64,000 bases of DNA. It comes from Mobula birostris (lineage: Eukaryota). The stretch lies in contig NC_092380.1 of the NCBI RefSeq assembly GCF_030028105.1, positions 26,003,144 to 26,067,143 of the forward strand, written 5' to 3'. The position numbers and the translations under genes are program-made. Numbering within the stretch: position 1 is the first letter of the stretch; each line of letters opens with the position of its first letter. A model generated the notes under the pieces. That model was given only the letters and a program-made list of their open reading frames with translations, was not told the DNA's origin and searched no databases. Of this stretch, positions 40,870-45,080 are shown in pieces.

Positions 40870-43800
40870 CAAAAATGCTATAGATACCAAACACAATACA
40901 ATTCATGCAACTCATGCAATTACTTTCTACATAGAATCAAAGTGCTTGTGTATATAACAAATTCAGCTTGAAGGAATACAGATGGTTGCCATCAGGCACA
41001 CCAAGCTGGCTTCAGTTTTTTTGCCAGCAGAAGCAAACTAAAACTAGAGATGAAAAGCATTACTGTAATTTAATATTCGAACAACTGAAATAGGCAGTTG
41101 TTTTAGTACAGGTTCGGGAGCTACAAGGAAGCTGAAGTTTTCTCTAGCTACCCTCTTCTTGTTACAATTGACAGTCTAGTAAGAACATACGGCAACAAAC
41201 CGAGGAGATAGTGACATCTGAAGCACTTACAAAAATCAGTTAGGAATTAGTGCCATTAAAGTTCAAGACAGGCAACTTTTATATAAAAAAATGTGAAAAT
41301 AAGTAGCTTTGGTCAGGCTCTCACAACTGCAGTTCAAACTGACAAACTTGCAAAGTTACAGCCCGGCTTACTACCTACACAAACTGTAAACCTTCTAGAC
41401 TTTCAACTCAGGAAGTTAGAGGGGCTTGTCAAATCTTACAACCCCAACATAAGTAAAATAAAATGGATGCTGCACAAGTGCTTTTGCAATATTGATTTTC
41501 CACTCTGTGATGAAAAGCTACACTTAAATTTCTCAACCCAAGGCAAAATATTTGGAAAATTAAATTCATATGTGCACACAAAAGTGTGATTGTGTTAAAT
41601 GTTTGGGGATTTTATAGAGAAGAATGTAAACTTAATCTAGGTGAATAATTAAAGCTCAAGTTTCAAACTTATCTTCCTTAAACTATGCCTATATAGTATA
41701 GCCCTTAATCACGACTCAAGTACCACACCCCCCCACCCCCCAGAAATGGAAAATGATAAAGTGCTATAATAGTTAAAACTAATTAAACAAATCCACTGTA
41801 GCGGTGTGCAGTGACTTGATCATGGCTGCCTCTAGGGTCTGCATAATTTGTTTTCTTTAAGTACACTTTCTCACAAAATTCACAAGACAATCTCAACAGA
41901 GCATTCCTGGTAAATTTGAACCCAAGTCTGAGACAACCTAATTTCCAAACCTTTAGATGTACATAGCATCTCTCCAAATCCTGCCATGAGCTATATACAA
42001 GTCAAAGACAGCTTTAAACTCACACTTAGCACTCTTTGGATTCCCACTTTCACAAACAAGCTTCCCAGGGTTACCAATACTGCACAAAGGATTATCAAAT
42101 CTAAAGCTGTGTAACTCTTTCACCATTTTTCTGGATCAACATGCAGGCTAAAATACTAATGCCATTTTTCATTTTCATTTAATTATCCCTTAAAATAACA
42201 AAAGTTTAAGTGAAGAAACAGACTCTCCCTGCAAAAGTCTCAAATTCACCCCTCTCTCCTCTAAACACTTTCCCACCTGAATAATGATTTTGATTTCTCC
42301 AAATAATTCTTCAAGGATTGTCAACAGCAAAACACACAACTCCTGCCACCAGTCTACAAATCTACCACATGTACAAAATGAAATTAGCAAACTAGGTAGC
42401 TCATTTAGAACAGTTTACTTGAAAAAACATACAACTACACTGACCATCTTGGAATGGAATTCTCAGGACTAGATATTCTCATTCTGCGGTACCATTCTTT
42501 CCCACAGTAACACAACGCAACCACTTTAATAAAAAGCCTTTAAGGGTGCAGATCCTAAAGACAAGGCACCAAGTTTCTCTACTCCAAAGGGCCAATTCTT
42601 AATGAGTCGCAAAAGAGCCAGTATCCCTCCCCCTAAGAGTACTTACTTTCCTATATTACCTTGTGTTTTGTGTTACTTGACCTATGCTGCACACTGCATC
42701 AGTTAATCTACTTGTTTTTTAATCTCTCTTTCCTCTCACTGTGGTGATGTATTGCGAGTTCTTACCCATCATACAAACCCATATACCAACCATACAATGA
42801 GATGTAAGGGGAGCATTAGCATCAGCTGCAAGCCAGCAGTGGCATTTGCCATCAGAATGGTGGCTGCAGTGACAACAGAAATAACACAGAATTAATATAT
42901 ACCCCTGCTTGCAAACAGTACACAATTCACAAACAAACTATTTTATTTTAAAAAATATAGCACCGAGACCCCTTTCACAGAACTATTTTGTTCTTAATAA
43001 GAGCCAAACAAAATTTAAGTAAACCGAGGCAAAATTTCTCCAGCCCAGTGAAGCCTGTGTTAAGTAGACAATCTTAAAGATAGAGCACAATTTAAGTGTT
43101 TGGAGATTTGCAAAGCAGCAAATATATCATATAGCCAAAACATAATATTTAAGATTTATTTTAATTACTATCAATTAGCTGTTTTATTATATAACAAGAT
43201 GATCTGAATTTACAAATTATGACCCATACTGAACTGTTGCCTGCTTAACGCAGGCTCTGATGAAAGGAGCATTTTTACACACACCCAGCTAATAACTTTT
43301 GAAGTGCCATTTATTTTGACACTGCATTTAAAAAGTCAATGACAAAGTTTCCATAAACTTTTAGAACAGTGAAAGGGGCACAACGATGCAAAAGGTCTCC
43401 ACTTTTAAAATGCAAAAAAATCCCCCACTGTGATTGGCAATTGGGAGCATGCCTTTGTTCTTCACACAAATTAATTTTGAATGTGTGAATGCTTAGTATG
43501 ATGAGGACATGTATACCTTCAATTACATGAAGGGGAAAATGTCCTTTACGCTGCTGTTTCACTTAAGACAGCAAGTAACTTGAGCCCTTCCCATCAGGAA
43601 AGGAAAACAGCAACAGAGCACAAAGGAATACAGACCCCAATAACTTAACAATTTAAAGAACTATAGTTTTGGGCAACCAGGTAGTTATTTCACCCTGGCA
43701 CAGGTCCTATAATTATTTCCCAAAATAACTTCAAATACAGGAACTTATAGGGCCAGAATTCCAAATGCACTCAGCAGCACCTATATTTTTCACAATTCTT

Positions 43801-45080
43801 GCATTTCTCCCCACTGAGAACAGTAACAGGAGGACATGATTCCAGCTGCTCAACAAAAAATAAACTCCCATGGTTAAGCAGGAATTGTGAACCAAGTCCT
43901 CAGTATGATAAATCTTTAACATGTATTGTATTACTACATGACTTCCAATATACCAGAAGAAACCATATACTTACCACACCATCACTAAAGTAGCAGTGCT
44001 CAACAGCCCGCTACAATCAGCAAAACCACCCATGAGTAAATACAGCTGAGTCTTGATAAACATACTAGTGCCAAACACTACTTAGATTAACTTAATCTCA
44101 CTGTACTATATTAAGTATAACTACAAAGCTGAACTGCAGCATTTATAGGCACATGAGAGTGTCTATCAGGATTCAGCTGTACTTAACCATTACAAAAATC
44201 TGCTCCAAACATCTGAAGGATATCTTTCATTTTCTAAGCAGTGGTGAGGCTTTGCACCATGCCTTGGTTTGTGGAATGCAGTGGCAGGCTGATCTGTAAC
44301 CTTTTTTTGAAGAAATGTTTTTCTATTATCTCAGTACAGAAAACCTGAAGGTGCTATCTCAAATACATGGGAGTCCCATGATACTTATATTTAGGGTTTA
44401 GAAAAAACTTATGGTTATATTTTTCTTCTCAAAAGTTACTTTATGGACATCAAGCAAAAAGGCCCATTACCCAAAGTGAGGTTAATACCCTATGGTCCTC
44501 TCAGGTAGAGAAATCGATCACTTTAATCACTGCAATGCTGTGCTCATAATATAATGCTTTTCAAAGTTCAATTAAACATCAGACAACTCTTGATGACAGC
44601 ATAGTGATGTCTGCAAGCACCGCTTTCAATATACTGGTTTAACTGGACTTATTCTTGGCTTCTGTTTAATTTACCCAGCAGAGATTAATTTGAAAATTAA
44701 CATATATAAACTAACTGAAGGATTCTGTCTACACTAACAAGGCAAAGCTGATTTCAACTTGTTGATAGCTCTATTCATGTTTGGTACACTTCCCTAGATC
44801 AAAATAAACCAGAGTCTCATTACTTAAACCCACTTGGTAATAACTTAGCCTCTCAGCTGGGCCCCAGCATGATCTAAATGAGGGAAATGAGCCTCGCTTC
44901 CTACCAACCCAAGAGGTGCCTACCGTGAGTGATTCTGCCATACACTAGCAGGGTTCAATTGTACTTACATTGACACTTAAAACTGGTTTGAATCCTAGGG
45001 TAAAGCAGAAGACTACATTAATAAATCAGAAAACCTGGTGCCATCTTTAAAAGGGTTCTTGCATATCTAAACATATTTAA
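40870..45080 (-). repeat. Giant degenerate inverted repeat B in SNRNP70 intron 7 (loop ~43150)
   Basis: More than 20 collinear blocks with sums drifting ~85930-86350, e.g. 43052-43071/43237-43256 (17/20), 42969-42978/43369-43378 (10/10), 41950-41960/44209-44219 (10/11). Confidence 0.82.
42766..42863 (-). other. SNRNP70: SNRNP70 alternative poison exon 7a (PTC-containing)
   Basis: tctgttgtcactgcag|CCACC...CTGGCTTGCAGCTGA...TGG|gtaaga; in-frame TGA at 42771-42769; matches the recalled human truncated-isoform tail TTQLACS* at motif level. Confidence 0.75.

What the first reader, a model, noticed from the sequence alone, without database searches (positions are those of the whole stretch)
40870..45080. 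Hairpin B (~4.2 kb) carries poison exon 7a inside its 3' arm
Collinear reverse-complement blocks: 41126-41132/44896-44902; ~41467-41518/44555-44602; 41950-41960/44209-44219; ~42092-42116/44034-44058; 42340-42355/43817-43832 (11 WC + 4 G-U + 1 mismatch on the pre-mRNA strand); 42767-42774/43496-43503 (covers the 7a stop codon next to its donor); 42969-42978/43369-43378; 43052-43071/43237-43256; loop ~43150. Many differences are G-U compatible only on the transcribed (minus) strand, which argues for RNA-level rather than DNA-level constraint.
Basis: partly seen in the sequence, partly recalled or inferred. Interest (0 to 1): 0.9.

Follow-up and report, generated by a model that had tools for sequence, protein, structure and literature searches.

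The report
U1-70K poison exon, local hairpins only
The proposed 4-kb RNA hairpin in an intron of the splicing gene U1-70K looks like a chance chain of short matches; what is there is the already known self-limiting 'poison' exon, preceded by a cluster of short, predicted stem-loops whose role is untested.

Summary
The interval is intron 7 of SNRNP70 (U1-70K), minus strand. Exon 7a is real: 42863-42766, with its acceptor and donors A/B/C matching the published human/mouse/zebrafish alignment. The eight blocks are present as letters, but the 4.2-kb rod is not supported. G-U-aware arm-to-arm alignment equals shuffles (104 vs 113±19; 525 vs 524±20). Shuffles give nested chains of 6-12 blocks. The 4,211-nt MFE holds none of the eight helices. 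The G-U bias (5:3) equals the strand's composition (1.6:1). Human has only 642 nt upstream of 7a, against the 2.2 kb the rod needs. What survives is local: single-copy stem-loops at about 43050-44190, upstream of the 7a acceptor (851-nt tiles z -5.2 and -3.6; tiles on the outer arms -0.3 to +1.1). A helix over donor A forms in 3 of 6 folds. No covariation test was possible. Published human eCLIP puts the dsRNA-binder ZFR on an SNRNP70 detained intron. The scan earlier noted a U1-70K donor array in another genome, but not this structure.

The parts
45655..45736 (-). SNRNP70 exon 7 (RRM); its donor opens the 9.6-kb intron 7 (45654-36032)
   Evidence: RRM_1 E 7e-06; exon 2 hits U1snRNP70_N E 7e-15; contigs X17 and X20 run on from 45736 into exon-6 sequence (table 7)
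42766..42863 (-). Poison exon 7a. Acceptor at 42864/42863; donor A after 42791, B after 42779, C after 42766; in-frame stop at 42771-42769
   Evidence: by-eye match to Fig. S2A of PMC3798272 and its mutagenesis primers; translation; coordinates counted
35930..36031 (-). SNRNP70 exon 8 (closes intron 7)
   Evidence: ORF translation
43052..43256 (-).
   Evidence: p about 1 in two contexts; present in 6 of 7 folded windows (absent); trimmed-window z -3.72 minus, -2.35 plus; single copy
42968..43379 (-). Helix 43369-43379/42968-42978 (block 7), context-dependent
   Evidence: present in 4 of 6 windows; p 0.14 in the 1,801-nt window; absent
42784..43439 (-).
   Evidence: p 0.87 in 42700-43550; present in 3 of 6 windows, absent and in the 1,801-nt fold
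44032..44190 (-).
   Evidence: I1; p 0.99; also in the global MFE; z -4.30 minus, -6.19 plus; single copy
43460..44025 (-). Run of local stem-loops (43983-44022, 43902-43980, 43830-43901, 43616-43772, 43550-43614, 43504-43545, 43461-43489)
   Evidence: z -3.31; z -4.03; blind 150-nt scan z -3.4, -3.98, -4.41
40870..45080 (-). The proposed 4.2-kb 'Hairpin B': not supported as one structure

Best explanation
There is no 4.2-kb rod (my confidence in this negative part is about 0.9). The locus is the known vertebrate U1-70K feedback switch. When intact U1 snRNP is plentiful it binds the donor cluster A/B/C, which activates the 7a acceptor; the transcript gains a premature stop or keeps the rest of intron 7, and is lost. 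The elements are shown here by homology; the mechanism is taken from PMC3798272. Upstream of the acceptor, about 1.2-1.4 kb of single-copy sequence (about 43050-44190, perhaps reaching down to 7a) folds into a tandem series of local stem-loops (predicted, above shuffle level). Inferred role: these stems form co-transcriptionally and act locally as a landing pad for dsRNA-binding splicing regulators such as ZFR-ILF2, tuning removal or detention of intron 7 and use of 7a.
For: Against the rod; human geometry (acceptor at +642) and a minigene lacking 1,083 + 849 nt downstream that still switches. For local structure: 3 of 12 minus-strand tiles of intron 7 have z below -3, two of them at 42700-44250; tiles on the outer arms give -0.25, +0.72 and +1.14. 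In the blind 150-nt scan 5 of 130 windows fall below -3, 3 of them in 43425-44024. 42760-43460 gives z -3.56 minus versus -0.87 plus. The sequence is single copy where a control repeat gives 2,427 candidates. In run X20, substitutions are 27 in 659 nt over 43705-44350 versus 282 in 4,050 nt elsewhere (4.1% vs 7.0%; hand count, table 8). ZFR prefers dsRNA, gives strong eCLIP signal on a human SNRNP70 detained intron, and its loss raises that intron's reads (10.1101/2022.06.15.495552).
Against: No covariation or probing data. The strongest tile shows no strand preference (43400-44250: -5.24 minus, -6.04 plus), nor does the 44032-44190 hairpin. The X20 piece holding the inner domain and 7a diverges at 6.3%, not clearly below background. 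The ZFR passage does not name the intron or the site. In favour of the rod: in-register tiles pair better than off-register ones (permutation p 0.0045 minus, 0.0065 plus), G-U-allowed stems in the band are 12 vs 7.3±2.5, and the global MFE is 30 kcal/mol below 2 of 2 shuffles.
Confidence: 0.55

Rival explanations
1. Only the known 7a switch matters. The local hairpins are neutral by-products of short local inverted duplications or compositional patchiness in a long intron and have no regulatory role.
For: Fold excess is equal or larger on the non-transcribed strand for the best tile and the best hairpin. The interval has a general excess of short inverted matches in all registers (143 vs 114±10, 279 vs 237±15). 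Other hairpins of similar z occur away from 7a. The published switch is explained by U1 binding to donors A/B/C, with no RNA structure invoked ('hairpin' 0 occurrences in the main text).
Against: Three of the five strongest blind windows cluster just upstream of 7a. Divergence is lower over 43705-44350 in one relative. The excess at 42760-43460 is minus-specific. ZFR binds a human SNRNP70 intron.
Confidence: 0.35
2. One reading: one 4.2-kb imperfect hairpin (loop near 43150) with 7a in its 3' arm, kept at the RNA level, which hides 7a's stop and donor.
For: The blocks exist and are nested. Blocks 6-8 co-fold in the 42700-43550 window (p 0.84, 0.995, 1.0). The in-register tile excess has p about 0.005. 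The global MFE is below 2 of 2 shuffles. Two C-to-U changes in block 2 of run X17 are wobble-compatible if the partner bases are unchanged (partners not shown).
Against: Arm alignment equals shuffles. Shuffles give equally long chains, and the best real chains use other registers. 0 of 8 blocks appear in the global MFE. Block 4's strand is taken by a p 0.99 local hairpin. Block 6 forms in 1 of 5 windows. The tile excess is the same on both strands, and its register was chosen after the fact. Relatives carry a 36-nt deletion (42447-42482, X19) and a 126-nt replacement (41776-41901, X20) in one arm, with no listed joint in the other. There is no room for the 5' arm in human.
Confidence: 0.06
3. 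One of the local hairpins (44032-44190 or 43052-43256) is an intron-hosted small-RNA precursor (miRNA- or snoRNA-like) rather than a splicing element.
For: Long, single-copy, stable stems in an intron that is abundant in RNA contigs.
Against: No Rfam match at gathering score in the window. The best two matches in 42500-44500 have E 2.6 and 4.3. The loops are branched and long.
Confidence: 0.04

Closest known systems
Vertebrate U1-70K (SNRNP70) exon 7a / U1C cross-regulation switch (Rosel-Hillgartner et al. 2013, PMC3798272; read abstract, introduction, first results sections, method passages, Fig. S2 text, Table S5)
   Same: Same gene and intron; alternative acceptor with nearly the same sequence; three clustered donors A, B, C in the same order and spacing; premature stop on use.
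   Different: The intron is 9.6 kb versus 3,162 nt, and the acceptor lies 2,791 nt in versus 642. The exon is 13 nt longer near its start, so the first stop falls next to donor C rather than early in the exon (hand reading). That paper invokes no RNA structure.
PCCR-controlled poison exons of BRD2 (3b) and BRD3 (5b) (PMC10789245; abstract and passages)
   Same: A poison exon with predicted intronic pairing that could set its inclusion.
   Different: There, two short conserved arms (-29 and -34 kcal/mol) loop the exon out and were proven by compensatory mutants. Here there is no such flanking pair: the long-range blocks are weak (-8 to -28 kcal/mol, chance level) and the supported stems lie upstream of or on the exon. 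Conservation beyond close relatives is untested.
ZFR/ILF2 (DZF) binding to conserved intronic dsRNA and detained introns (10.1101/2022.06.15.495552; passages only)
   Same: Names SNRNP70 as a rare case where a detained intron has strong ZFR eCLIP signal and rises on ZFR loss; ZFR prefers dsRNA.
   Different: The passages seen do not map the site or name a structure; no link to 7a donors is shown.
Decoy exons in retained introns (10.1101/258897; passages only)
   Same: Lists a 60-nt cassette in SNRNP70 intron 7 as a candidate decoy flanked by retained introns.
   Different: Its intron-retention activity was variable and low; structure was not addressed in the passages seen.

Membership tests
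U1-70K exon 7a switch | Lies in intron 7 of the U1-70K gene | tested here: met
U1-70K exon 7a switch | Conserved alternative 3' splice site | tested here: met
   window 42864/42863 matches Fig. S2A by eye
U1-70K exon 7a switch | Cluster of three downstream donors A, B, C | tested here: met
   after 42791, 42779 and 42766
U1-70K exon 7a switch | Use introduces a premature stop | tested here: met
   stop after 30 further codons; for donors A and B a frameshift stop in exon 8 (hand reading)
U1-70K exon 7a switch | Acceptor actually used in this species' RNA | tested here: inconclusive
   no 7-7a joint among the 2 joints listed for 4 of 4 runs; contigs drop rare forms
U1-70K exon 7a switch | U1C dependence | not testable with these tools
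   needs a knockdown
Long intramolecular dsRNA hairpin (kb-scale inverted repeat) | Arms complementary beyond shuffled sequence | tested here: not met
Long intramolecular dsRNA hairpin (kb-scale inverted repeat) | Rod dominates the predicted fold | tested here: not met
   0 of 8 blocks in the 4,211-nt MFE
Long intramolecular dsRNA hairpin (kb-scale inverted repeat) | G-U over A-C excess on the transcribed strand beyond composition | tested here: not met
   5:3 observed in ungapped blocks 3, 5 and 8 versus 1.6:1 expected
Long intramolecular dsRNA hairpin (kb-scale inverted repeat) | A-to-I editing of the arms | tested here: inconclusive
   contigs only; rare variants dropped
PCCR-controlled poison exon (BRD2/BRD3 type) | Pair of complementary regions flanking and looping out the exon | tested here: not met
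   flanking blocks 1-5 are at chance level and absent from the only fold that holds them
PCCR-controlled poison exon (BRD2/BRD3 type) | Conservation peaks or compensatory changes at the arms | tested here: inconclusive
   only 40 of 462 substitution rows and 12 of 111 indel rows shown; no distant orthologue obtained
PCCR-controlled poison exon (BRD2/BRD3 type) | Disruptive and compensatory mutants change and restore inclusion | not testable with these tools
   bench test
Rfam RNA family | Match at gathering score | tested here: not met
   0 matches in 64 kb; best E 2.6 in 42500-44500

The most novel reading that the evidence does not exclude
A 700-nt domain (about 43450-42770) folds around the 7a acceptor, and its 5' strand (43432-43445) pairs with the ultraconserved donor A/B cluster. 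RNA structure, set by a dsRNA-binding protein such as ZFR-ILF2 on the upstream stem array, would then compete with U1 snRNP for the very sites that sense U1C. The domain's 590-nt upstream reach would fit inside the 642 conserved nucleotides that precede 7a in human, so it could be a vertebrate-wide structural layer on the U1-70K feedback switch. I did not find it in print.
Probability: 0.15. Interest if true: 0.6.

Novelty: new member of a known kind. Interest (0 to 1): 0.27.

Why it matters
The exon 7a switch is known; finding it intact here only extends its range. The open point of value is smaller: the reason for the high conservation of the sequence upstream of 7a is not given in the paper I read, and human data put a dsRNA-binding regulator on an SNRNP70 intron. 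The stem coordinates found here (43052-43256, 43432-43439/42784-42791, 44032-44190) make a structural explanation directly testable by covariation and compensatory mutagenesis.

Tried and rejected
1. Self-BLAST, four duplex-alignment schemes, three chain scorings and a global alignment of the arms (which recovers only block 8 in register): no rod.

2. The largest residuals are the inner tile (-19.2) and block 5's tile (-14.1). The proper null (best register picked in shuffles) was not run for this statistic.

3. Whole-region shuffles: only 2 minus-strand shuffles and no plus-strand shuffle finished, so there is no z. A 400/500-nt sliding scan gave 1 row (40750-41249: -3.41 minus, -2.63 plus) before the script machine was lost.

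4. Orthologues: a 7a donor-cluster motif found 0 matches in metagenome contigs; there is no paralogue in the own genome. No covariation test was possible.

5. Runs: no holder is on record as RNA. In the 4 runs laid there was no 7-7a joint, and run X5 showed 1 other letter in 40800-45168 and no T>C. Contigs cannot show absence, so neither counts as evidence. Contig depths were not used.

6. Indels in 43000-44000 (5 listed, of 12 shown of 111): 4 fall outside high-probability helices, about what 40% helix cover gives by chance. Not used.

7. Mimics of the U1 stem-loop I and U1A-binding loops (motifs recalled): none in intron 7 on the minus strand.

8. Rfam: nothing. Transposon origin of the two best hairpins: 1 match each, though the tool warns that no match does not prove rarity.

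9. A notebook line saying blocks 4 and 5 were absent from the 42500-44300 fold is void: their left arms lie outside that window.

10. Papers: PMC12795684's 'exon 7a' is CIRBP and unrelated. Other papers were seen as search listings only. The PCCR catalogue tables and the bioRxiv supplements were not seen and may list an SNRNP70 pair or the ZFR peak positions.
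Full report
Setting. The window is from a 4.0-Gb genome. That it is a shark or ray is my impression from recalled repeat types and is untested. The minus strand carries SNRNP70 (U1-70K): exon 2 hits U1snRNP70_N and exon 7 hits RRM_1. Exon 7 is 45736-45655 and exon 8 is 36031-35930, so intron 7 is 9,623 nt and contains the whole finding.

Exon 7a. The alignment in Fig. S2A of PMC3798272 matches the window by eye from the polypyrimidine tract to 11 nt past the last donor. The acceptor is at 42864/42863. Donors A, B and C follow 42791, 42779 and 42766 (assigned from the mutagenesis primers). 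In human the acceptor is at intron position +642. Use of it depends on U1C and on U1 binding to A/B/C, the rest of the intron is mostly retained, and the product goes to NMD; this holds in mouse and zebrafish. So this part is real and known.

The blocks. All eight are in the sequence: three exact (7, 8 and 10 nt), three ungapped with differences, two needing gaps. The axis drifts by 160 nt. The question is whether such a chain exceeds chance in 4.2 kb.

(i) Self-BLAST with 7-nt words over 32001-54600 gave 10 listed hits, none joining the two arms.

(ii) Local duplex alignment of the arms with G-U allowed scored 104 against 113±19 for 40 dinucleotide shuffles, and 525 against 524±20 with looser penalties. 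Watson-Crick-only scores were 26 vs 26±3 and 16 vs 15±2. The plus strand was likewise within its shuffles.

(iii) Best nested chains scored 19, 22 and 27 against shuffle means of 14.2, 20.0 and 23.9 (2, 9 and 8 of 30 shuffles as good). Shuffles gave chains of 6-12 blocks on average, and the best real chains used other registers.

(iv) The MFE of the 4,211-nt strand has no pair from any block. (v) None of the blocks is among the 25 longest of 89 inverted pairs, and a global alignment of the arms recovers only block 8.

In an 11 x 11 tile test, in-register tiles paired better than permuted ones (p 0.0045 minus, 0.0065 plus). The register was built from the hand-picked blocks, however, and the effect is the same on both strands. 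The global MFE (-1151) is 30 kcal/mol below 2 of 2 shuffles. The local tiles below exceed their shuffles by 38 and 27 kcal/mol, enough to account for it.

Strand bias. The minus strand has G 896, U 1442, A 1209 and C 664, so random G-U juxtapositions outnumber A-C by 1.6 to 1. In the ungapped imperfect blocks (3, 5, 8), five differences are G-U on minus, three on plus, and one on neither (hand count): 5:3. Duplex energies favour minus for blocks 2 and 5 and plus for 3, 4 and 8. The higher minus scores are matched by the minus shuffles. The argument for RNA-level constraint therefore fails.

Geometry and relatives. The rod needs about 2.2 kb upstream of the acceptor; human has 642 nt. A human minigene keeping only intron positions 1-844, 1,928-2,227 and 3,077-3,162 still switched with U1C. 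Four runs from four organisms were laid on 40800-45800 (4 of 24 listed). Contigs cover nearly all of the stretch in each, and in X17 and X20 exon 7 runs on into exon 6, which shows spliced RNA. X19 lacks 42447-42482 and X20 has 41776-41901 replaced, both in the 3' arm, with no listed joint in the 5' arm (small gaps were not itemised). Only 40 of 462 substitution rows were shown, none in the 5' arm, so compensation could not be scored.

What is there instead. A blind 150-nt scan of 36000-45824 gave 5 of 130 windows with z below -3, three of them in 43425-44024. Twelve minus-strand tiles of 851-855 nt (20 shuffles each) gave, by start: 36035 -1.02, 36750 +0.93, 37600 +2.01, 38450 -0.20, 39300 +0.03, 40150 -3.25, 41000 -0.25, 41850 +0.72, 42700 -3.56, 43400 -5.24, 44250 +1.14 and 44800 +1.93. 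The 42700 and 43400 tiles were not placed blind. The excess sits just upstream of and over 7a; the outer arms have none.

Pair probabilities resolve it into local stems: 44032-44190 (p 0.99; it occupies block 4's right strand), 43983-44022, 43902-43980, 43830-43901, 43616-43772, 43550-43614, 43504-43545 and 43052-43256. Block 8 forms in 6 of 7 windows folded, block 7 in 4 of 6, and block 6 in 1 of 5. Strand preference is mixed: 42760-43460 is -3.56 minus and -0.87 plus, but 43400-44250 is -5.24 and -6.04. The region is single copy (a control repeat gave 2,427 candidates) and has no Rfam match. In X20 the two pieces over 43705-44350 differ at 27 of 659 nt, against 282 of 4,050 nt in the five other intronic pieces listed (hand Poisson estimate p about 0.003; one species; table cut). 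The piece holding 7a and the inner stem differs at 108 of 1,708.

How it most likely works. Shown: the gene, the 7a elements, the absence of arm-to-arm signal, and a predicted local fold excess. From the literature: the U1C-dependent switch (PMC3798272); a 60-nt SNRNP70 intron-7 cassette as a weak decoy exon (10.1101/258897); ZFR's preference for dsRNA, its strong eCLIP signal on a human SNRNP70 detained intron, and the rise of that intron on ZFR loss (10.1101/2022.06.15.495552). Inferred: the local stems fold as the intron is made, out-compete any long-range pairing, and serve as a platform for dsRNA-binding regulators that tune 7a use or intron detention (0.55). The main rival is that they are neutral (0.35). 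The rod gets 0.06.

Comparison and novelty. As a 7a switch this is a new member of a known system. It fails the tests for a kb-scale hairpin and for a BRD2/BRD3-type looping pair (PMC10789245). Full-text searches pairing SNRNP70 or U1-70K with exon 7a, intron 7, RNA structure, hairpin, complementary regions, unproductive splicing, editing, FUS or ZFR listed no paper whose title or abstract start describes a structure in this intron. Most were seen as listings only, and supplementary PCCR tables were not seen. An earlier scan note on a U1-70K donor array in another genome prompted the donor-motif counts reported in passing.

Verdict. Observation partly confirmed; the headline structure is not supported; the poison exon is known; a cluster of local stems is a modest, testable lead. 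Interest 0.27.

Noticed in passing
window 37505-37527, 37655-37672 and 42641-42661 (minus): Small clusters of donor-like motifs in intron 7 downstream of 7a. Between 36032 and 42760 AGGTAA occurs 5 times on minus and 0 on plus, GGTRAG 5 and 1, GTAAGT 4 and 2. Window-wide counts are at shuffle level and no local null was run. Possibly the counterpart of human site D or further decoys.
   Followed up: partly
window 42865-42887 with 43304-43326: A 23-nt inverted pair (78%, I6) that would cover the 7a polypyrimidine tract up to the acceptor. Both strands have local alternatives and it is not among the high-probability helices; one of 89 pairs, so possibly chance.
   Followed up: no
window 40720-41010 (minus): A second structured patch about 1.8 kb downstream of 7a: z -3.16; its tile is -3.25 minus versus -0.34 plus.
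   Followed up: partly
window 48415-48510 (minus), intron 6: A compact hairpin about 75 nt downstream of the exon-6 donor, z -4.0 with 0 of 200 shuffles as good (window picked by eye); no Rfam match.
   Followed up: partly
window 18971-21063 and 22468-24617: A true multi-kb inverted arrangement (segments of 116-327 nt, 71-76% complementary) beyond the gene's 3' end, made of two LINE-like copies (label recalled from the ORF translations, not tested).
   Followed up: no
window 40800-45684: Intron 7 is carried on contigs of 5.8-9.4 kb in four organisms' runs, two of which also show the spliced exon 6-7 joint; this fits retention of intron 7 as in human, but DNA in the runs is not excluded.
   Followed up: partly
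window 45110-45310: A repeat fragment inside intron 7 (40 scored of 2,427 candidates in the own genome).
   Followed up: no
window 41078: Run X5 (same sample label as the DNA) and X17 read A where the window has C: an allele or an assembly error.
   Followed up: no
window 43058 and 43065 (minus): The two mismatches in the block-8 stem are A opposite C on the transcribed strand, the geometry ADAR favours (recalled); no editing data.
   Followed up: no
window 8153-8782 (minus): Overlapping open frames of 152 and 209 aa that look like an exon of a neighbouring gene; not identified.
   Followed up: no
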